A stretch of 64,000 bases of DNA from Candidatus Poribacteria bacterium (GCA_965207095.1 OZ242270.1:687378-751377), one strand, 5' to 3'. Positions 12,561 to 62,064 are shown, counted from the stretch's first letter. Notes: a model not told the origin generated them from the letters alone. Program-made: numbers and translations.

Positions 12561-12794
12561 GGGGGGTTAGTCATTTTGTTTACACATCACATGTCGCCCC
12601 GATGGGGCTAATGGTTGGGGGTTACCAACCTGCGTTGGGCGACGGGCGAGGGGACCTCGCCCCTACGATTACGGACAATTTTACATAAATGTCAACACGC
12701 CCTAGTCATTTTTCACATGTCGCCCCGCTGGGGCTATGGGAATACATTGAAGTGTTGGGTTTCACGATCACGGTTCAGACAAACTACGCGCTGT

Positions 12795-14518: not shown

Positions 14519-16087
14519 TTGAGTACAATCCAAAGCGGTATTGAAAATCGCCTGTGGACGATAGCAGATGAGTTGAGAGCAAACTCACGGCTCCGGGCGT
14601 CTGAGTATTCAACGCCCGTGCTAGGGTTGATATTTTTACGGTATGCAGACCACAAATTCACGCAGGCGGAAGGGGAAATCCGCGAAACCGCATCCACCGG
14701 TAGCAGGCGCACGAGAATCTCAGATCAGAGCGCAGCATATCATGCCCGCGGTGCCTTCTACCTCCCAGAAAACGCGCGTTTCCAGTACCTGTTGAACCTA
14801 CCGGAGAGCGAGGATATTGCACGGGCTATCAACGACGCGATGCGGGCGATTGAGGAAGCAAACAACAGTCTTGATGGTGTTCTACCCAGGACCTACAACC
14901 GCCTTGAACGGAGTGTCCTCTTTGAACTGCTCCGCACCATGGCAGAAATTCCGATGGACATTGAGGGCGATGCGTTTGGTAAGATCTACGAGTATTTCCT
15001 TGGCAACTTTGCCATGGCGGAAGGGCAACGGGGCGGCGAGTTCTTCACTCCCACCTCTCTGGTGAAACTAATTGTTGAGATTATCCAGCCCTTTCAAGGA
15101 CGAATTCTGGACCCAGCGTGCGGTTCTGGCGGTATGTTCGTCCAGAGCGCCGAGTTTATCCATAACCACCAACAGAATGGGAACAATCGGATCAGCATTT
15201 ACGGAACGGAACGGGTTGCAGAAACAATTCGGCTCTGCAAAATGAACCTCGCCGTGCATGGACTGGAAGGCGACATCCGGCAAGCGAACAGCTACTACGA
15301 GGACCCGCATCGATGTGTGGATAGATTCGACTTCGTGATGGCAAATCCGCCGTTCAACGTGGATAGGGTGGACAGGGAACGGCTTAGGGATGACCCACGA
15401 TTTCCGTTCGGGATGCCCCGCGTGGATAACGCCAACTATCTCTGGATTCAGTTGTTTTACAGCGCCCTCAACGCCTCTGGTCGGGCAGGGTTTGTGATGG
15501 CAAACTCCGCCGCCGATGCCCGTGCCTCTGAATTGGAGATCCGCAGGCAGATTATCGAATCCCGTGCCGTTGATGTGATGGTGAGTATCTCCTCCAATTT
15601 CTTCTATACCGTCACGCTGCCCTGTACCCTCTGGTTCTTCGACAAGTCTAAAGGGGAGAGCGATCGAGCGGATAAGGTACTTTTCATTGATGCCCGCCAT
15701 ATCTACCAACAGGTAGATCGAGCACACCGAGAGTTCACACCCCAGCAGATTGAATTCCTGTCCAACATTGCGAGGCTGTATCGGGGCGAACTCCCTGAAA
15801 ACCAGCACGACAGCGCGGATATGATGGCAGCGAAATTCCCCGATGGCGTGTACCTTGATGTGCCCGGTCTTTGTAAGGTGGCAACAGTTGAGCAAATAGA
15901 AGCGCAGGGGTGGAGCCTCAATCCGGGACGGTATGTCGGGGTTGCAGAACGGGAAGAAGATGCGTTTGACTTCGCGGAACGGTTGGGAGAACTCAACGAG
16001 GAGTTAGAAGTCCTGAACGTTGAGGCACGTCAGTTGGAGGAACGGATTGGAGAGAATGTGGCGATGATTTTGGAAAACAGAGTATAA
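14519..16087 (+). CDS. hsdM: Type I restriction-modification system DNA methyltransferase subunit (N6-adenine)
   Basis: N-terminal HsdM_N-like region LWTIADELR...[13 protein letters not shown]. Catalytic NPPFN motif (ANPPFNV). AdoMet motif [10 protein letters not shown]. Confidence 0.9.
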
Positions 16088-16409
16088 TAACCAATGGTAC
16101 TAGCTTGCAGCTGTTGATAAGCTGAAACGTGAAAATCATTGGTTCATTTAGCCCCAGCGGGGCGGCATGTTTATAGCAGGGGCGATCCCCCAAATCCCCA
16201 AGCCCCAGCGGGGCGATATGTGTATAGTATAAGGTGTCCGCAGATAAAATCGTCAAGTAGAATACAGAGAGCATTGTTTCTGCCATTAGGGAGGTTGCAT
16301 GAACATGGACGAAAAATAAGAGTTAATAGAAATCTACAAACTTCACGCAGAACTTGCTGACAGCGTCAGCAGACAACGAGGCACAACAAACCGTTTTTAT
16401 ATTTTACTC

Positions 16410-16757
16410 ATGTCAGGATTATCTGTGCTCTTCTGGGCACTATTACAACTCCGAAATGGAGTGCCGCTTGGCGACCTGATGATAGGTTTCGGGCTATTGG
16501 GCACATCACTCGCAGTCGCTTGGTACATCCACATCCGTTCCTACCGCCAGCTAAATTCGGGTAAATTTAAACCCCTACATGAGTTAGAGGAGAAGCTCGC
16601 TTACCCTTTTTTCAAGCGGGAATGGGAACTACTCGAAGAAGGAGAGAACCCGAACAAATATTGGAAGTTGACTGTTGTTGAAACCTTTGTTCCTATCATC
16701 TTTTTCCTTCTCTTTGCGGTGGTGTTGTTTATCGGGATTTACCTATTGCTGCGCTGA
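16410..16757 (+). CDS. Small membrane protein (3 predicted TM helices), unknown function; reading frame is open a further 90 nt upstream to an in-frame TAA at 16317
   Basis: Hydrophobic segments MSGLSVLFWALLQL, LMIGFGLLGTSLAVAWYIHI and FVPIIFFLLFAVVLFIGIYLLL. The upstream in-frame peptide ELIEIYKLHAELADSVSRQRGTTNRFYILL reads as a genuine amphipathic helix, preceded by ATG..TAA (MNMDEK*). Confidence 0.45.
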   Translation: MSGLSVLFWALLQLRNGVPLGDLMIGFGLLGTSLAVAWYIHIRSYRQLNSGKFKPLHELEEKLAYPFFKREWELLEEGENPNKYWKLTVVETFVPIIFFLLFAVVLFIGIYLLLR

Positions 16758-16760
16758 AAT

Positions 16761-16772
16761 TCCATTGTCTGA
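16761..16772. promoter_or_regulatory. Palindromic operator-like site GAATCAGGATTC (5-2-5 inverted repeat)
   Basis: Identical 12-mer at 17177-17188. Related GAATCAGGATTT at 14168, and an inverted variant at ~17266. All lie in intergenic spacers of the R-M locus. Confidence 0.25.
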
Positions 16773-16868
16773 ATCAGGATTCTCCCCGATAGATCCCCGA
16801 TATATCGGGACAGGCGGGACAGGCAGGATGGAAGGATTCTCAGGATAGCACATGAGAGCGGAGAGATT

Positions 16869-17150
16869 ATGCAAGAAAAAGATAGAAAACGAGATCCGAT
16901 GCCCCCTCCCGATGCAACCCCAGAGGAGATTGGCGAATTTTGGGATACCCACAGCCTATCCGATTATTGGGACGAAACCCACGAGGTGGATTTTCAGATC
17001 AATCTCAAACTGAAACACAATCTGGTCCCGGTGGAACGTGAGATTGCCGAGCAAATTAACGCACACGCAACAAAACAGGGCGTATCGGCTGAAAAATTGG
17101 TAAACCTCTGGCTTCGAGACAAATTAAAAGGGATTACCACAAGGCAATAA
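16869..17150 (+). CDS. CopG-family antitoxin-like protein (PF12441/BrnA-type partner of BrnT), orphan
   Basis: PEEIGEFWDTHSLSDYWDETHEVDFQI is the hallmark N-terminal motif of this antitoxin family. No DUF497/BrnT gene is nearby. Confidence 0.6.
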   Translation: MQEKDRKRDPMPPPDATPEEIGEFWDTHSLSDYWDETHEVDFQINLKLKHNLVPVEREIAEQINAHATKQGVSAEKLVNLWLRDKLKGITTRQ

Positions 17151-17176
17151 GCAAGGGAAGATGGTGCAAATTGTCA

Positions 17177-17188
17177 GAATCAGGATTC
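17177..17188. promoter_or_regulatory. Palindromic operator-like site GAATCAGGATTC, second copy, ~120 nt upstream of hsdS
   Basis: Exact repeat of the 16761 site within the 20-bp direct repeat TTGTC(T/A)GAATCAGGATTCTCC. Confidence 0.25.
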
Positions 17189-17307
17189 TCCAGATTGAAG
17201 AAGTTTCACGATAGTGGATGGCAGTGGATAGCATCAATCCTGTAAATCCTAAAATCCAGTAAATCCAGATTCAGACAGAGTGCAATGATGATTTTGGAGA
17301 AGACAGC

Positions 17308-18589
17308 ATGGTGCAACGTGAAGATTGGAAACCTTTTCGTTTGGATCAATTGGGCTTTGTTGGACGCGGGAGGTCCCGAAGCCGACCAAGAAATGATCCT
17401 GCTCTCTACGGGGGACCTTATCCGCTATTTGAAACAGGGGATATTAAATCCACCGATCTTTACCTGTCAAAGTCAAAGAAAACTTACAATGAAAAGGGAC
17501 TAGCTCAAAGCAAACTGTGGAATCCTGGTACACTTTGCATCACGATTGCTGCTAATATCGCGGAAACTGCGATTCTGAAAATCAAGGCATGTTTTCCAGA
17601 TAGCGTCGTTGGTTTCGTTGCGGATCCTGAGACGACTGATGTAAGATATGTTAAATACTACATTGATTTCATCAAACTACAAATGCAAAACATATCGCGG
17701 GGAACAACACAAGATAACCTGAGTGTAGAGAAGTTGTTATCCTTTGAGTTTTTCGCGCCGCCGTTGAATACTCAACGCAAAATCGCCGCAGTCCTCAGCG
17801 CCTACGACGACCTGATCGAGAACAACACCCGCCGCATCGAAATCCTTGAGGAGATGGCGGGGGCAATCTACCGAGAATGGTTTGTCGAATTCCGCTTTCC
17901 GGGGCATGAGGGGGTGAAGATGGTGGAGTCGGAGTTGGGCTTGATACCGCAGGGGTGGGAGGTAAACAACTTCGGTGAGGTTTCGCAATTACATAGAGGA
18001 AAATCGTACAGAAGTCAGGAATTTAGTCGAAGATGCAAGAGGGAATTGCCATTCCTTAACCTGAAAAACATTGATCGGGAAGGCGGATATAGAATTGATG
18101 GTCTGAAATGGTATGATGGAAGAAACGCAGATTGATCTCAAAGACATTGTTATGGCACTGTGATTGACACAAGATGGGAGAATTGTTGCCCGTTCCACTC
18201 GTAATTCCCAATATAGGGCGCGAAATAATAATGTTTTCTATGGATCTTATTAAAATCAAACCGGAAGAATCATTTCAAACAGACTTTCCTTTTATGCCTT
18301 GTTCAGATACTCAAGCCTTACCTGATAGTACTCAAAGAGTATGCTAATGGCGCGAGTCCAAACATCTAAGCCCCAGTCATGTTCAATCATCTGAATTAGT
18401 TTGCCTCCCAGTGAATTAAGACAAAGATATGCTGAGATTGCAGAGTCCAGTTGGACCAACAAAGTGATTTGCTACTTAGAAAGAAAAACACCAACCTCCG
18501 CCAAACCCGCGATCTCCTACTCCCCAAACTGATCTCCGGCGAGATTGACGTATCCGAACTTGATATCGACACCGACTGATACTATTCCC
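17308..18589 (+). pseudogene. hsdS: Type I R-M specificity subunit HsdS, disrupted: TRD1 + central conserved region + first ~65 aa of TRD2 (17308-18135), then ~300 nt without coding capacity, then a conserved C-terminal 51-aa remnant (18436-18589) in the same frame
   Basis: Central conserved region LSVEKLLSFEFFAPPLNTQRKIAAVLSAYDDLIENNTRRIEILEEMAGAIYREWFVEF. C-terminal remnant [31 protein letters not shown] is the typical HsdS distal conserved region. The 18136-18435 segment has stops in all forward frames and is AT-rich. Confidence 0.7.
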
Positions 18590-18853: not shown

Positions 18854-18942
18854 AATTGATGAGACACACCAAACCGGTGCGGTTAGGAAACCGCACCTAC
18901 CGGGCGGGCGAAAGTGTCTATCTGTTTTTAGAATTCACCATA
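18849..18942. mobile_element. MITE-like repeat family A, copy 3 (short form, single palindromic module)
   Basis: TAGAATTGATGAGACACACCAAACCGGTGCGGTTAGGAAACCGCACCTACC..GAAAGTGTCTATCTGTTTTTAGAATTCACCATA. Confidence 0.6.
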
Positions 18943-18957
18943 AAGGAGGAAATTGAG

Positions 18958-19215
18958 ATGAATTTAACCGTTGAACTAACAACCGATCAGGTCGTCGGTT
19001 TTGTCCAACAGATGCCAGCCGAAGAAAGACGGTCACTACTACTCGCGATTGCAGAGCAGGCAGCAGCCAATCGGGAAACACGTATAGACCGTGCTGAAAC
19101 ACAGTTGCGGCAGTTGTGTAAAGATCGGGGGTTGGATTGGGATGCCATGACCGAGGCAGAGCGCGAAAATTTTATTGATGATCTGATCCACGAGGACCGC
19201 GAATGCAACCAATAG
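18958..19215 (+). CDS. Putative antitoxin / addiction-module component, cognate to the downstream PIN gene
   Basis: 85-aa acidic helical protein with an AAGGAGG RBS. Overlaps the PIN gene by 13 nt, as in translationally coupled TA pairs. Family not recognised. Confidence 0.45.
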   Translation: MNLTVELTTDQVVGFVQQMPAEERRSLLLAIAEQAAANRETRIDRAETQLRQLCKDRGLDWDAMTEAERENFIDDLIHEDRECNQ

Positions 19216-19610
19216 CCGTTTACGATACAAACATTTTGTTGTCAGGTATCGGCTGGCGAGGTAGTCCGTATCGTTGTCTTGAATTGGCACGGCAGGGCAG
19301 CGTTGAAGGGTTGACCTGCTCCGAAATACTGGATGAATTGGCGGAGAAATTAACGACTAAACTCAACTTTCCGGTGTCCGAAACTACTGATGTAATCGCG
19401 GATCTCCTTGGTTTCTTGCGGGTGGTCAAGATTACCAACACGCTCAAAGCCATCTCTGCCGATTCGGACGACGACAAAGTCATTGAATGTGCCGTTGTGG
19501 GGGAGGCAACCCATATTGTAACCGGCGATCGCCGTCATCTGTTGCCACTTGGCAGCCATCAAGGTGTCCTTATTGTCACAGCAGCGGACTTTCTTGGACA
19601 GTTTTCATGA
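19203..19610 (+). CDS. PIN-domain protein (putative type II toxin, TIGR00305-like)
   Basis: VYDTNILLSG N-terminal acidic motif. Later conserved D residues (..VTGDRRHLLPL..) are typical of small PIN toxins. Confidence 0.6.
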   Translation: MQPIAVYDTNILLSGIGWRGSPYRCLELARQGSVEGLTCSEILDELAEKLTTKLNFPVSETTDVIADLLGFLRVVKITNTLKAISADSDDDKVIECAVVGEATHIVTGDRRHLLPLGSHQGVLIVTAADFLGQFS

Positions 19611-19655: not shown

Positions 19656-22600
19656 ATGCAGAATAATCCGTACAGCGAAGACCAACTGGTTGAACAAACC
19701 GCCATCGCCCTACTCGCAGGAATGAGGTGGGAGACCTTGGACTGTTACAACGAATTCGATCACGGTAGCAGTCCGCTCGGTAGGGAGAATAGGGGCGAAG
19801 TGGTTCTGATAAGGCGGTTACGCGCTGCCTTGAAGAGGCTCAACCCCGATGCGTCCAGTGAGGCAATCGGTGCAGCGATTGAGGAGTTGACCCGCTCCCG
19901 TGCGACAATGAGCCGCGAAGAAGCCAACTATGAGATATACAGGCTACTCAAGGATGGTGTGAAAGTTACAATCACGGACCCGGACGGCGAAGGTGAAACC
20001 GATGAAATACTAAAGGTAATTGATTGGGAGAATCCAGAGAATAACGATTACTTTCTGGCATCACAGTTATGGATCGCCGGTGAGATGTACACTCGCAGGC
20101 CTGATGCAATCGGCTTTATCAACGGCTTACCCTTAGTGCTGATGGAGTTCAAACGGATTGACGAAAACCTTCACAGCGCATATCAGGACAATCTCAGGGA
20201 CTACAAAGACACAATCCCCCACCTATTCTGGTACAACGCCGTGATTATCCTCTCCAACGGCTCAGAGAGCAGATTCGGTAGCTTGACCGCGAGTTGGGAA
20301 CATTTCACCGAATGGAAACGGGTTGAGCGCGAAGATGAACAGGGAGCGGTTTCGCTGGAAACAATCCTAAAGGGGATATGTGAACACCGCCGGCTGTTAG
20401 ACATTATCGAGAACTTCACACTGTTTATGGAAGTCCAAGGCGGGTTGATTAAGCTAATCGGCAAGAACCATCAATACCTCGGCGTGAACAACGCGATCGA
20501 TGCCCTGCGTGGGATAGAGTCGAATCAGGGAAAACTCGGTGTCTTCTGGCATACGCAAGGCTCAGGAAAGAGCATCTCGATGATTTTCTTCGCGCAGAAG
20601 GTGCTGAGAAAGATACCGGGCGGTTGGCGGTTCGTTATCGTGACTGATCGCAGAGAGTTGGACGACCAGATCTATAAAAACTTCGCAGATTCTAGGGGCG
20701 TGGTCACGCAGGGGGAGGTCCATGCGGAGGATATCCAGGGTCTCCGGCAGCTGTTGAGCGAGGATCACCGCTATATCTTCACGCTTATCCAGAAGTTCCA
20801 AACAAAGGACGATGCACCGCATCCCGTCCTCTCCGATAACGCAAACGTCATTGTCATTACCGATGAATCACACCGCAGCCAATACGATACATTGGCGTTA
20901 AACATGCGGACGGCGCTTCCCAACGCGGCATTCATCGCCTTCACCGGGACACCGTTAATCGACGGAGAGGAACGGACGAAGGAGGTGTTCGGGGAGTATG
21001 TCTCGATTTACGACTTCAAGCAGTCGGTTGCGGACGGTGCGACCGTGCCGCTCTATTACGAAAATCGGGTGCCTAGAATGCAGTTGATCACCGAACACCT
21101 AACCGAGGATATAGAACAAATCCTTGAATCAGCCGAACTGGACGAAACACAGGAAAACAGGCTTGAACAGGAGTTTGCGATACAGTACCAGGTCATCACG
21201 CGGGAGGAACGGTTAGAAGCGATTGCGGCAGATATTGTCTCCCACTTTATGGGACGAGGATACCGTGGCAAGGCGATGGTCGTCTCAATCGACAAAGCCA
21301 CCGCCGTCAAGATGTATGATAAGGTGGGGGAATATTGGAGAAACTACTGTGAGGAGTTGAAGGAGCAGTTAAGCGATACCACCGAGGCCGCGGAACGGGG
21401 TACTCTGGAAGAAAAGATTCAGTACATGGAGGAGACCCGTATGCGGGTGGTGGTTTCCCAGTCGCAGAACGAGATTGGTGATCTGAGAGCGAAGGGTGTG
21501 GACATCACTCCACATCGGCAACGGATGAACACCCAGGATTTGGATGCCAAATTCAAAGACCCAGAGGACCCGTTCCGTATCGTTTTCGTCTGCGCGATGT
21601 GGATGACCGGTTTCGATGTACCAGCTTGCTCAACAATCTATTTGGATAAACCCCAACGTAACCATACCCTGATGCAGACTATCGCTAGAGCCAATCGCGT
21701 CTTCAAGGATAAAGTCAACGGCTTAATCGTCGATTACATCGGCATCTTCCGAAACCTTGAGCGAGCGTTGGCGATTTATGCAGATGGCACTGATCCAGAT
21801 GGCACCGATCCGGACGGCAAGAATCCTATCCGGGATAAATCGGAACTTGTCGAGGAGCTCAGAGGAGAGACCACGGAGATTAAGGCGTTCTGCACGGACC
21901 TCAATGTGAACCTCGTCCAGATTGACGCAGCGGAGACAGAGCCCCTTGAACGTATCAGACAAATCAATGACGCCGTAGACCGGATATTGATCAATGACGA
22001 GATTAAAGGGGATTATCTACAACGTGCACGCCAAATCTCTCGACTATACAAGGCAATCCTCCCCGATCCCGCGGCGAGCGATTTCAACGGGATCTGCACC
22101 CTCATTAACATCATCGCGAAGAAGATCAAGAACCTGACACCAGCACCGATCGACACTACGGATGTGATGGAGCAGATCGAGGATCTACTAGATCAATCAA
22201 TCGTGCCAACGGGTTACATCATAGAGGTAGCTGGAGATTACGAAACGGATTCGATTGTCGATCTGAGTCGGATTGACTTCGACGAACTCCGGGAAAGGTT
22301 TAGGACGCAACACAAACATATTGAGGCGGAAAAACTGAGGGGATCAATCCGGCGGAAGCTATCCGAGATAATACCGCTTAATGGGACCCGAATGGATTAT
22401 CAGGAACGGTTCGAGCGGATTATCGCGGAGTATAATGAAGCTGCGATAGATGTTGATACGTGGTTTGAACAACTGATCGAATTGGCGGGAGAACTCACGG
22501 AGGAGGAGCAGCGTACCATTGCTGAGCAACTCACCGAGGAACAGTTAGCGGTGTTTGACCTGCTAACTCGACCTGAGATTGAGTTAGATGAAACAGAGAG

Positions 22601-22844
22601 AGACAAAGTGAAAGCTATATCCAAAGATTTACTCACGAAGCTGAAACAGGAGAAGTTGGTTTTGGATTGGCGTCAACGCCAACAATCCCGCGCGGCGGTC
22701 AAAGTCACTGTCGCAGAGATCCTCGACGAACTGCCGGAACGTTACACGCAGGAGATATATGATCGGAAGTGCGAGGTCGTGTATCAACACATTTACGATT
22801 GTTACTACGGCGCCGACAACAGTATTTATGGAAGCGCGGCATAA
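19656..22844 (+). CDS. hsdR: Type I restriction enzyme R subunit (endonuclease/helicase)
   Basis: HsdR N-terminal domain. SF2 helicase motifs HTQGSGKS (Walker A), VITDESHRSQ (DExH), FTGTP, VDYIGI. Length 1062 aa. Confidence 0.9.
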   Translation: MQNNPYSEDQLVEQTAIALLAGMRWETLDCYNEFDHGSSPLGRENRGEVVLIRRLRAALKRLNPDASSEAIGAAIEELTRSRATMSREEANYEIYRLLKDGVKVTITDPDGEGETDEILKVIDWENPENNDYFLASQLWIAGEMYTRRPDAIGFINGLPLVLMEFKRIDENLHSAYQDNLRDYKDTIPHLFWYNAVIILSNGSESRFGSLTASWEHFTEWKRVEREDEQGAVSLETILKGICEHRRLLDIIENFTLFMEVQGGLIKLIGKNHQYLGVNNAIDALRGIESNQGKLGVFWHTQGSGKSISMIFFAQKVLRKIPGGWRFVIVTDRRELDDQIYKNFADSRGVVTQGEVHAEDIQGLRQLLSEDHRYIFTLIQKFQTKDDAPHPVLSDNANVIVITDESHRSQYDTLALNMRTALPNAAFIAFTGTPLIDGEERTKEVFGEYVSIYDFKQSVADGATVPLYYENRVPRMQLITEHLTEDIEQILESAELDETQENRLEQEFAIQYQVITREERLEAIAADIVSHFMGRGYRGKAMVVSIDKATAVKMYDKVGEYWRNYCEELKEQLSDTTEAAERGTLEEKIQYMEETRMRVVVSQSQNEIGDLRAKGVDITPHRQRMNTQDLDAKFKDPEDPFRIVFVCAMWMTGFDVPACSTIYLDKPQRNHTLMQTIARANRVFKDKVNGLIVDYIGIFRNLERALAIYADGTDPDGTDPDGKNPIRDKSELVEELRGETTEIKAFCTDLNVNLVQIDAAETEPLERIRQINDAVDRILINDEIKGDYLQRARQISRLYKAILPDPAASDFNGICTLINIIAKKIKNLTPAPIDTTDVMEQIEDLLDQSIVPTGYIIEVAGDYETDSIVDLSRIDFDELRERFRTQHKHIEAEKLRGSIRRKLSEIIPLNGTRMDYQERFERIIAEYNEAAIDVDTWFEQLIELAGELTEEEQRTIAEQLTEEQLAVFDLLTRPEIELDETERDKVKAISKDLLTKLKQEKLVLDWRQRQQSRAAVKVTVAEILDELPERYTQEIYDRKCEVVYQHIYDCYYGADNSIYGSAA

Positions 22845-61590: not shown

Positions 61591-62064
61591 TTATGGTAGA
61601 TTTCAGAATTAATCAGACACTGCAAATCGGCGAAGTTAGAGCCTGTTTTAAAAGTGAAACAGTCATCTATAGGAAGTTGTTCACATGTCGCCCCGCTGGG
61701 GCTTAGGTTGTTTGTTTGTCCTGTATTCTATAAACATGTCGCCCCGCTGGGGCTTAGGGTCTGTTTTAAGAGTAGGTGAAACGGTCATCTTTTGCCATTC
61801 TATGGGCACAATCAACCGATTTTGAGAGTATTTACCCGTAAACTGACAACTTTCAGAGATTATTTGGATTTTTCAAACAGGTTCTTAGAAACCTCGCCTA
61901 CCGGGGATGGAAAAATCCGGGCTATGACACCGGTAGGGGCGGTTTCTAACCGCACCGCATAGGCTTGTCCCGCTTCTCGGGATCCCGACCTGCCGGAATT
62001 GGACACAGCGCCTACCAAACATGGGGAGTGAAAGTGTCTATCTGTTTTTACGATTCACTGTAGG
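61591..62064. mobile_element. MITE-like repeat family A, copy 5 (long composite form, ~470 bp)
   Basis: Same termini (TATGGTAGATTTCAGAATTAATCAGACAC ... GTGTCTATCTGTTTTTACGATTCACTGTAGG). Interior carries two ACATGTCGCCCCGCTGGGGCTTAGG units 50 bp apart. Confidence 0.55.

What the first reader, a model, noticed from the sequence alone, without database searches (positions are those of the whole stretch)
16299..17150. Candidate unconventional TA/abortive-infection pair: small 3-TM protein (with in-frame TAA) followed by an orphan CopG-family antitoxin
The 115-aa membrane ORF is open for a further 30 codons upstream: ELIEIYKLHAELADSVSRQRGTTNRFYILL. That peptide looks like a genuine amphipathic helix and is preceded by ATG-AAC-ATG-GAC-GAA-AAA-TAA. 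So either a nonsense mutation or base error truncates a ~150-aa protein, or the protein starts at the internal ATG. The layout is an N-terminal helix, then two TM helices, a helical region and a C-terminal TM helix. That is reminiscent of the small pore-forming effector modules (SLATT-like 2TM effectors) used by conflict systems; this resemblance is inference only. It is followed 110 nt later by a DNA-binding antitoxin-family protein whose usual BrnT toxin partner is absent.
Basis: inference. Interest (0 to 1): 0.65.

Follow-up and report, generated by a model that had tools for sequence, protein, structure and literature searches.

The report
Decayed Thoeris-like effector beside orphan antitoxin
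The small membrane gene is a nonsense-mutated copy of a widespread membrane protein family that normally sits next to an immune-signalling TIR enzyme, and the gene after it is a leftover antitoxin from a different module, so the two are neighbouring wrecks inside a restriction-modification operon and not a working toxin-antitoxin pair.

Summary
An ORF runs from ATG 16299/16305 to 16757. It has an in-frame TAA at 16317-16319, and a CopG/BrnA-type gene lies 111 nt downstream (16869-17150).

Read through the TAA, the protein is a full-length member of Pfam PF24838 '8xMP' (E 3e-32). It is not SLATT. About 45 alignable relatives have CAA or CAG (a few AAA, CGG or CAT) where the window has TAA.

In 80 species-level loci, 37 have an intact ThsB-type TIR gene abutting the 8xMP start, and 11 more have a broken or partial one. 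This TIR+8xMP operon matches an untested '3TM' Thoeris class in a 2025 preprint. In one relative (L012) the same hsdM-hsdS gap holds TIR+8xMP. The window keeps only the last 23 TIR codons, which contain a further stop.

The CopG-like gene is a BrnA antitoxin. Relatives at 81% identity sit in BrnT-BrnA pairs; relatives at 91% sit alone after hsdM without 8xMP. It follows 8xMP in only 1 of 87 other loci.

hsdS is also frameshifted. Verdict: a decaying cassette array inside a type I R-M operon of a probable sponge-symbiont Poribacterium. This copy is of low interest. The TIR+8xMP family, and TIR-less 8xMP copies under purifying selection, are moderately interesting.

The parts
14519..16087 (+). 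hsdM, the type I R-M N6-adenine methyltransferase. It is intact (522 aa).
   Evidence: ORF. It is 88.5% identical over its full length to the L001 gene, which carries HsdM_N and N6_Mtase Pfam hits.
16150..16227 (+). Two copies of a REP-like interspersed repeat (AGCCCCAGCGGGGCG..ATGTnTATAG). They abut the breakpoint where the TIR gene was truncated.
   Evidence: Direct-repeat family D2. There are 7 copies in the window against 0.12 expected. The same junction is present in L004 and L001.
16231..16302 (+). Stump of a ThsB-type TIR gene: its last 23 codons plus the stop (KVSADKIVK*NTESIVSAIREVA*). It has an extra in-frame TAG at 16258-16260 where relatives have TGG. Its TGA overlaps the first ATG of the 8xMP gene.
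   Evidence: tblastn of TIR partners gives 78-84% identity, E 3e-5. Translation and DNA alignment with the TIR-bearing loci L012 and L005.
16289..16294 (+). GGGAGG ribosome-binding site for the 8xMP gene.
   Evidence: Sequence. It is conserved in orthologous loci.
16299..16757 (+). 8xMP (Pfam PF24838) membrane-protein gene, inactivated by CAA>TAA at 16317-16319. The conserved start is ATG 16305.
   Evidence: Pfam E 3e-32 when read through. Homologues of 150-152 aa are up to 97% identical and have Q at the stop position. The codon is CAA/CAG in about 45 loci and TAA only here.
16410..16757 (+). Residual 115-aa ORF from an internal ATG. It has no Shine-Dalgarno and lacks the conserved N-terminal helix and part of TM1.
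   Evidence: In the AF2 model, residues 3-50 form one continuous helix.
16764..16785 (+). Left copy of the 22-nt direct repeat ATTGTC[T/A]GAATCAGGATTCTCC, a cassette-boundary motif lying just after the 8xMP stop.
   Evidence: Repeat family D4. L004 runs straight from here to 17170. The motif is found 29 times, always on the sense strand, mostly close downstream of a gene's stop codon at cassette boundaries in related loci.
16869..17150 (+). Orphan brnA (CopG_antitoxin family), 93 aa and intact.
   Evidence: Pfam PF12441 E 2.9e-9. A homologue 81% identical sits in BrnT-BrnA pairs. A homologue 91% identical sits alone after hsdM.
17170..17191 (+). Right copy of the 22-nt direct repeat. It is also the left end of a ~115-nt element (17165-17285) with ~20-nt terminal inverted repeats.
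   Evidence: (D4, I1) and the fold.
17308..18579 (+). hsdS, disrupted. A 275-aa ORF (to 18135) is followed by a second target-recognition domain broken by at least three frameshifts. The conserved C-terminal motif lies at 18475-18576.
   Evidence: Three-frame translation and tblastn with intact HsdS of 393-438 aa from L012, L090, L001 and L011.
18856..19610 (+). Small ORF plus PIN_3-domain gene (a VapBC-like pair) between hsdS and hsdR.
   Evidence: ORFs. The orthologous genes in L001 are annotated PIN_3.
19656..22844 (+). hsdR, the type I restriction subunit. It is intact (1062 aa).
   Evidence: It aligns over its full length with the L001 HsdR, which has HSDR_N, ResIII and T1RH-like_C hits.

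Best explanation
The region is the variable hsdM-hsdS gap of a type I restriction-modification operon, most likely in a sponge-associated Candidatus Poribacteria genome. It holds the remains of two unrelated two-gene modules.

Module 1 was a Thoeris-like operon. It consisted of a small ThsB-type TIR protein whose stop overlaps the start of a ~150-aa, three-TM protein of Pfam family 8xMP.

The proposed mechanism of intact systems is inferred, not shown. The TIR would sense infection and make an NAD-derived nucleotide signal. The signal would bind the conserved cytoplasmic face of a ring-shaped 8xMP oligomer. The ring would then breach or depolarise the membrane and abort the infection.

In this window the TIR gene has been deleted down to its last 23 codons, which carry a further stop. 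The 8xMP gene has a CAA>TAA nonsense mutation at codon 5 (codon 7 from the first ATG). Only a hexa- or tetrapeptide, or at best an N-terminally truncated 115-aa fragment lacking invariant residues, could be made.

Module 2 was a BrnT-BrnA toxin-antitoxin pair whose toxin gene is gone, leaving brnA as a 406-bp cassette bounded by 22-nt direct repeats.

The two surviving genes are neighbours because cassettes accumulate in this gap, not because they work together. hsdS in the same operon is also frameshifted, so the whole locus is decaying.
For: Family identity:
- Pfam 8xMP scores 111.7 bits (cut-off 30) only when the TAA is read through.
- There are 1262 homologues in the word-indexed search. 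The 16 retrieved are 150-189 aa and read MDEKQ/MNMDEKQ, with K in one, at this position.
- The family has 2390 50%-identity clusters.

Nonsense mutation:
- The codon is CAA/CAG in about 45 related loci and TAA only here.
- TAA is a normal stop in this window, for example in hsdM and brnA.

TIR partnership:
- A Pfam ThsB_TIR gene overlaps or abuts the 8xMP start in L002, L003 and L005-L007.
- Among 80 species-level genome loci, 37 have a full TIR, 5 a split one, 6 a fragment and 32 none.
- The TIR matches PADLOC ThsB at E 7e-12.
- It is 55% identical (E 3e-55) to a TIR listed under the putative '3TM' effector class in Table S1 of bioRxiv 10.64898/2025.12.03.692087.

Ancestral state:
- L012 has hsdM-TIR-8xMP-hsdS-hsdR in the orthologous operon.
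- The window keeps the TIR C-terminus KVSADKIVK*NTESIVSAIREVA*.

brnA:
- One search shows BrnT-BrnA pairs and one search shows hsdM-brnA without 8xMP.
- Searches show brnA absent from the closest orthologous loci.
- One search shows the flanking 22-nt direct repeats.

Locus decay: hsdS is frameshifted.
Against: - The TAA could be a base-calling or assembly error. Reads are not available. The rest of the ORF is 97% identical to intact copies and has almost no further damage: 1 synonymous and 2 other nonsynonymous lineage-specific changes.
- TIR-less 8xMP copies in L004, L001, L008 and L009 are intact and show dN/dS of 0.04-0.20. Loss of the adjacent TIR therefore does not by itself make the gene useless.
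- 8xMP and brnA do occur together, at 87% nucleotide identity, in one other place with a different context (L009). This is weak evidence for co-transfer of the two as a unit.
- No member of the TIR+8xMP configuration has been tested experimentally. It was not among the systems tested in Table S2 of the preprint.
- I could not confirm that the preprint's '3TM' effectors are Pfam 8xMP.
Confidence: 0.78

Rival explanations
1. The TAA is a sequencing or assembly error, or a very recent polymorphism. The organism then carries an intact TIR-less 8xMP gene that is functional like its orthologues. It would respond to a TIR encoded elsewhere in the genome or act independently of TIR.
For: TIR-less orthologues sharing the same TIR breakpoint (L004, L001) are intact and under purifying selection, with dN/dS of 0.08-0.20 at dS of 0.11-0.23. 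The window copy has only a few other lineage-specific changes. One Bryobacterales genome carries both a TIR-less copy and a TIR-linked copy (L043 and L071).
Against: The same locus carries other disabling lesions: a TAG inside the TIR stump and at least three frameshifts in hsdS. hsdM and hsdR are clean, which argues for real decay and not random error. G59D places a charge at the start of TM2.
Confidence: 0.14
2. The 115-aa (or full-length) membrane protein is a toxin or abortive-infection effector, and the downstream CopG/BrnA-like protein is its dedicated antitoxin or repressor, forming an unconventional two-gene module.
For: Both genes are on the same strand, 111 nt apart. The pair recurs as an 87%-identical 944-nt block in L009, outside an R-M operon. 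RHH proteins can act as repressors (established knowledge).
Against: The adjacency occurs in only 1 of 87 other loci. brnA occurs without 8xMP, and 8xMP occurs without brnA in the nearest orthologues. brnA's own family partner is BrnT. The brnA cassette is bounded by direct repeats and is precisely absent in L004. The membrane gene is truncated at codon 5, and the internal start has no ribosome-binding site.
Confidence: 0.04
3. This is a Metis-like reading. The 8xMP protein next to the N6-adenine methylase HsdM would sense methylated mononucleotides released when phage degrades host DNA, as MisC does in type II Metis.
For: MisC is also a three-TM protein predicted to form an octameric ring, and it depends on host N6-adenine methylation (bioRxiv 10.1101/2025.11.05.686725). 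Here 8xMP sits directly after hsdM, and relatives often neighbour DNA methylases.
Against: There is no detectable homology. hhalign of a 75-sequence 8xMP profile against a MisC homologue gives probability 0.2%. That MisC homologue hits PADLOC 'Hydrolase-TM' at 2e-27, whereas 8xMP hits nothing. No HAD phosphatase (MisB) is adjacent. The copies closest to the window's (75-90% identical) are TIR-linked.
Confidence: 0.03

Closest known systems
Pfam PF24838 '8xMP' (octameric membrane protein family)
   Same: There is a full-length HMM match (111.7 bits, profile positions 2-133 of 136) once the TAA is read as Gln. Length and the three-TM helical layout agree with the family.
   Different: The window copy is interrupted at codon 5. 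The family has no experimentally defined function that I could find: no PDB relative and no paper retrievable by its name or accession.
Thoeris TIR-signalling defence systems with membrane effectors. Examples are type II ThsA Macro-TM, type V ThsF/DUF2270 (three TM, ring), type VII ThsH/SLATT, and the untested '3TM' class of bioRxiv 10.64898/2025.12.03.692087.
   Same: In relatives, a small ThsB-type TIR gene is translationally coupled to a small multi-TM protein in a two-gene operon inside defence islands. The TIR is 55% identical to a '3TM'-class TIR from that study.
   Different: 8xMP gives no Pfam hit to DUF2270, SLATT or Macro. The configuration has not been tested. In this window the TIR is reduced to 23 codons and the effector is nonsense-mutated.
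BrnT-BrnA type II toxin-antitoxin system
   Same: The downstream protein matches CopG_antitoxin PF12441. It is 81% identical to a BrnA that overlaps a BrnT_toxin (PF04365) gene.
   Different: There is no brnT here. At most about 26 nt resembling the brnT 3' end remain upstream, which is weak evidence. The NCBIfam BrnA score is below its cut-off (20.7 against 60).
Type II Metis effector MisC / PADLOC 'Hydrolase-TM'
   Same: It is a small three-TM protein predicted to form an octameric ring, it acts as a nucleotide-sensing membrane effector, and it is functionally linked to N6-adenine methylation.
   Different: No sequence or profile similarity was found. There is no HAD phosphatase partner, and MisC is about 230 aa against about 150 aa here.
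Defence or toxin genes embedded in type I R-M operons, such as PrrC between the hsd genes of the prr locus (from my own knowledge, not tested here)
   Same: Accessory conflict genes are inserted between the hsd genes of one operon.
   Different: Here the inserts are variable cassettes (8xMP, TIR+8xMP, brnA, SLFN_AlbA_2, DUF2806, IS630) that differ between close relatives. There is no evidence of functional coupling to the R-M enzyme.

Membership tests
Pfam PF24838 8xMP | HMM score above the gathering threshold over the whole domain | tested here: met
   111.7 bits against a cut-off of 30, profile positions 2-133 of 136, with the stop read as X. The 115-aa ORF alone scores 83.8 bits over positions 35-133.
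Pfam PF24838 8xMP | Uninterrupted ORF of about 150 aa | tested here: not met
   TAA at 16317-16319 where about 45 relatives have CAA or CAG, and a few have AAA, CGG or CAT.
Pfam PF24838 8xMP | Homo-octameric membrane ring | not testable with these tools
   Only a monomer AF2 model could be made.
Thoeris-type TIR signalling system | Adjacent ThsB-type TIR gene | tested here: not met
   The window keeps only 23 C-terminal codons, with an internal TAG. The feature is met in relatives: 37 of 80 loci have a full TIR, and L012 has one in the same operon.
Thoeris-type TIR signalling system | Intact effector gene next to the TIR | tested here: not met
   Nonsense codon at codon 5.
Thoeris-type TIR signalling system | TIR-made nucleotide signal activates the effector and protects against phage | not testable with these tools
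   The '3TM' class is absent from the tested systems in Table S2 of bioRxiv 10.64898/2025.12.03.692087.
SLATT / DUF4231 2TM effectors | Profile match to a SLATT-family model | tested here: not met
   No SLATT, DUF4231 or DUF2270 hit for the window protein at E<=1, or among the 25 families listed for 34 family members at E<=10. This was hmmscan, not HHpred.
BrnT-BrnA toxin-antitoxin | BrnA/CopG_antitoxin domain | tested here: met
   PF12441 scores 38 bits against a cut-off of 28. NCBIfam BrnA scores only 20.7 against 60.
BrnT-BrnA toxin-antitoxin | Overlapping upstream brnT toxin gene | tested here: not met
   tblastn with BrnT finds nothing in the window at E<=10. BrnT is present next to the homologue that is 81% identical.
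Type II Metis (MisB-MisC) | MisC-family TM protein plus adjacent HAD phosphatase MisB | tested here: not met
   hhalign probability 0.2-0.5%. There is no PADLOC Hydrolase-TM hit and no HAD gene adjacent.
   brnA lies downstream of 8xMP in 1 of 87 other loci. Each gene occurs without the other in orthologous operons.

The most novel reading that the evidence does not exclude
TIR-less 8xMP genes in Poribacteria may be functional stand-alone or trans-activated effectors and not dead cargo. These genes lie in the hsdM-hsdS gap and at a Cu-ATPase/GT9 locus. They would respond to TIR signals made elsewhere in the genome, or to a signal linked to the surrounding R-M system. If so, the hsdM-hsdS gap, with its sense-oriented 21-nt motif after most cassettes, would be a cassette-exchange site that shuffles defence effectors among sponge symbionts of many phyla.
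Probability: 0.12. Interest if true: 0.6.

Novelty: new member of a known kind. Interest (0 to 1): 0.3.

Why it matters
For this window it matters little. The two genes should be annotated as a pseudogenised 8xMP effector and an orphan brnA, not as a new toxin-antitoxin system.

The comparison behind that verdict is more useful.
- It ties an uncharacterised Pfam family (8xMP; about 2,400 clusters at 50% identity) to ThsB-type TIR genes in a translationally coupled operon.
- This gives independent genomic support to an untested '3TM' Thoeris class.
- The system is spread across many phyla of sponge symbionts.
- The effector often outlives its TIR under purifying selection.

The last point raises a testable question: can signalling effectors be served in trans?

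Tried and rejected
- SLATT/DUF4231/DUF2270 membership: hmmscan of the window protein and of 34 relatives at E<=10 found only 8xMP.
- NCBIfam and PADLOC: no hit for 8xMP.
- Literature on '8xMP', 'PF24838', 'octameric membrane protein' and RipA: nothing relevant. My recollection that NCBI names a 'RipA family octameric membrane protein' could not be linked to this family and is not used.
- Metis MisC homology: I recovered a MisC homologue next to a MisB-like HAD gene on a Pseudomonas syringae plasmid. Profile comparison was negative.
- Recoding of TAA: rejected. The stop is not conserved in any relative, and TAA terminates neighbouring genes.
- Alternative start after the TAA: there is no ATG, GTG or TTG before 16410 and no Shine-Dalgarno there.
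- Phage carriage: no relatives in IMG/VR. L005-L007 look phage-like in gene content, but this was not followed up.
- Rfam and promoter/terminator scans of 15900-17400: nothing.
- Exact look-up of the window's BrnA protein: not on record.

Full report
OBSERVATION

ATG AAC ATG GAC GAA AAA TAA occupies 16299-16319. The TAA (16317-16319) is in frame with the 115-aa ORF 16410-16757. The 30 codons in between read ELIEIYKLHAELADSVSRQRGTTNRFYILL. A 93-aa ORF follows 111 nt later (16869-17150). A strong Shine-Dalgarno (GGGAGG, 16289-16294) precedes the ATGs, and nothing comparable precedes the internal ATG at 16410.

WHAT THE MEMBRANE GENE IS

With the stop masked, the 152-aa translation matches Pfam PF24838 '8xMP, octameric membrane protein family'. 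The match has E 3e-32 and 111.7 bits and covers profile positions 2-133 of 136. The 115-aa ORF covers only positions 35-133. The upstream peptide is therefore part of the domain.

A search of 5.8 billion proteins found 1262 homologues. Most of the 120 best listed are 150-157 aa, and the closest is 97% identical. All 16 retrieved read MDEKQEL... or MNMDEKQEL..., with K in one.

At the DNA level, about 45 alignable loci have CAA or CAG at this codon, and a few have AAA, CGG or CAT. Only the window has TAA. Several close relatives lack the first ATG, so the conserved start is ATG 16305 and the stop is codon 5.

TAA also terminates hsdM and the CopG-like gene in this window, so recoding is not an option. 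The N-terminal stretch lost by starting at Met38 contains 12 residues invariant among close relatives. It also contains three (Y13, R27, N31) of the twelve positions conserved at 90% or more across a 75-sequence alignment reaching 30% identity.

With that deep alignment, AlphaFold2 gives a confident all-helical model of P0001, an intact homologue 97% identical to the window's protein (pLDDT 94, pTM 0.83). It has a 48-residue helix (3-50) running from the cytoplasmic N-terminus into TM1. TM2 extends into the cytoplasm (57-97). A short helix (104-111) and TM3 (122-151) follow.

No solved structure resembles it by sequence or by Foldseek. No SLATT, DUF4231 or DUF2270 hit appears for the window protein, or among the 25 families listed for 34 relatives at E<=10. 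PADLOC and NCBIfam have no model for it. The family is large, with 2390 representatives of 50%-identity clusters at E<=1e-3.

ITS REAL PARTNER

Neighbourhoods of homologues show a 136-aa ThsB_TIR protein whose stop overlaps the 8xMP start (ATGA) in L002, L003 and L005-L007.

A scan of one genome per species returned 80 loci. Almost all come from sponge-associated lineages. Candidatus Poribacteria are closest (75-96% identity). Bryobacterales, Latescibacterota, Synechococcus-like cyanobacteria, Rhodothermales and others are also represented. The TIR state in these 80 loci is:

| TIR state | Loci |
|---|---|
| Full TIR gene directly upstream | 37 |
| Frameshifted TIR | 5 |
| TIR fragment | 6 |
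| No TIR detected | 32 |

The TIR matches Pfam ThsB_TIR (E 1e-15) and PADLOC ThsB (E 7e-12).

[quoted passage not shown] That class is not among the 30 operons the authors tested. I could not verify that their 3TM effectors are Pfam 8xMP.

Other frequent neighbours are Eco57I/MmeI-type and N6/N4 DNA methylases, an SNF2-NOV_C helicase and a protein with a weak (below-threshold) match to a BrxC domain. This is defence-island company.

WHAT HAPPENED IN THIS WINDOW

The genes lie between hsdM (14519-16087) and hsdS (17308-) of a type I R-M operon. A PIN_3 pair and hsdR (19656-22844) follow.

The orthologous operon in L012 reads hsdM-TIR-8xMP-hsdS-hsdR. In the window, the 72 nt before the 8xMP start translate as KVSADKIVK*NTESIVSAIREVA*. 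This is the TIR C-terminus at 78-84% identity, with TGG>TAG at 16258-16260. Upstream of that point the TIR is replaced by two copies of an interspersed REP-like repeat. L004 and L001 share the same junction.

So the TIR was deleted first, and the nonsense mutation in 8xMP came later. The window lineage has only one synonymous and two other nonsynonymous private changes (G18E, G59D).

hsdS is also broken. A 275-aa ORF is followed by a second target-recognition domain with at least three frameshifts. hsdM and hsdR remain full length.

THE CopG-LIKE GENE

It matches Pfam CopG_antitoxin. A homologue 81% identical is the downstream member of overlapping BrnT-BrnA pairs at eight places.

A homologue 91% identical sits directly after hsdM in four R-M operons that have no 8xMP. 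The closest orthologous loci with 8xMP (L004, L001/L010, L008, L011, L012) have no brnA.

In the window the gene lies in a 406-bp segment bounded by 22-nt direct repeats at 16764-16785 and 17170-17191. L004 runs straight from one repeat copy to the sequence after the other.

Only L009 has 8xMP followed by brnA, as an 87%-identical 944-nt block next to an LptF/G gene. One co-occurrence in 87 loci does not make a module.

The hsdM-hsdS gap is instead a variable cassette site. Across relatives it holds 8xMP, TIR+8xMP, brnA, 8xMP+brnA, 8xMP+SLFN_AlbA_2+DUF2806, brnA+DUF2806, or brnA+IS630+DUF2806.

MECHANISM

The following are shown:
- membership of the 8xMP family;
- the conserved, translationally coupled TIR-8xMP operon;
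- its location in defence islands;
- the deletion and nonsense lesions in this window.

The following is inferred by analogy with Thoeris types II, V and VII, and with the Metis MisC ring. The TIR makes an NAD-derived signal on infection. The signal binds the conserved cytoplasmic face of an 8xMP oligomer. The oligomer then permeabilises the membrane.

For this window the most likely state is no function. Translation from the Shine-Dalgarno ends after four to six codons, and the internal ATG lacks a ribosome-binding site.

RIVALS

A sequencing error at 16317 cannot be excluded without reads. TIR-less orthologues are intact, with dN/dS of 0.04-0.20, so an intact orphan would probably still be useful to the cell. 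I give this reading about 0.14.

The TA-pair reading gets about 0.04, for the distribution reasons given above.

A Metis-like reading is tempting because 8xMP sits beside an N6-adenine methylase and MisC is also a three-TM predicted octamer. However, a MisC homologue recovered from a P. syringae plasmid hits PADLOC Hydrolase-TM at 2e-27. It shows no profile similarity to 8xMP (probability 0.2%), and no HAD partner is present. I give this reading about 0.03.

VERDICT

The 'conflict-system membrane effector' intuition is right, and the 'pair with CopG' is wrong. This copy is a pseudogene in a decaying locus.

It is a new, defective member of a known kind. The family is in Pfam, and its TIR-linked configuration has been predicted but not tested. 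Interest for the window is low.

Two by-products deserve a note. One is the persistence of TIR-less effectors under purifying selection. The other is the motif-bounded cassette architecture of the hsdM-hsdS gap in sponge symbionts.

Noticed in passing
window 16764-16785 and 17170-17191; also L001, L004, L008-L012, L090-L093, L095/97/98: A 21-22-nt motif, ATTGTC[A/T]GAATCAGGATTCTC, contains the palindrome GAATC-AG-GATTC. It occurs 29 times in 1.19 Mb of fetched loci, always on the sense strand. In most copies it lies close downstream of a gene's stop codon at a cassette boundary in the Poribacteria R-M operons. It looks like a cassette-boundary or REP-like 3' element, and its function is unknown.
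   Followed up: partly
window 17165-17285: A ~115-nt element between brnA and hsdS has ~20-nt terminal inverted repeats (GCAAATTGTCAGAATCAGGATT ... AATCCAGATTCAGACAGAGTGC), so it is MITE-like. Its fold is not more stable than shuffled sequence (z -1.35). Related copies flank cassettes in L011 and follow brnA at its native BrnT-BrnA locus (L094).
   Followed up: partly
window 12595-12735, 14275, 16150-16227, 61689-61754: An interspersed REP-like repeat with core AGCCCCAGCGGGGCG has 7 copies against 0.12 expected by chance. One pair sits exactly at the breakpoint where the TIR gene was truncated.
   Followed up: partly
window 17308-18579: hsdS appears to be a pseudogene or a 'half' S subunit. 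A 275-aa ORF is followed by a second target-recognition domain broken by at least three frameshifts, while hsdM and hsdR are intact.
   Followed up: partly
window 16050-16085 versus 17274-17309: The 3' end of hsdM and the sequence just upstream of the hsdS start are 72% identical over 36 nt. This may be a duplicated hsdM/hsdS junction left by cassette insertion, or it may be chance.
   Followed up: no
L016, L020, L022, L027, L029-L033, L039 (with L017, L023 and L040 for comparison): In about a dozen Poribacteria genomes, an intact 8xMP gene sits without a TIR between a copper P-type ATPase and a family-9 glycosyltransferase. L017 has a TIR, and L023 and L040 have only TIR C-terminal fragments, at what appears to be the same site. 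This suggests recurrent TIR loss with retention of the effector.
   Followed up: partly
L008-L087 (record titles): Nearly all genomes carrying close 8xMP relatives are marine-sponge symbiont MAGs from many phyla. Identity reaches 50-60% across phyla, which suggests horizontal spread of TIR+8xMP within sponge microbiomes.
   Followed up: no
L005-L007: A TIR+8xMP pair 90% identical to the window's gene lies among many small unannotated ORFs and a GIY-YIG gene. This may be a phage or mobile element, but no relative was found in IMG/VR.
   Followed up: partly
window 18856-19610: A small ORF plus a PIN_3-domain gene (a VapBC-like pair) lies between hsdS and hsdR and is conserved in the orthologous operons. 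It appears intact.
   Followed up: no
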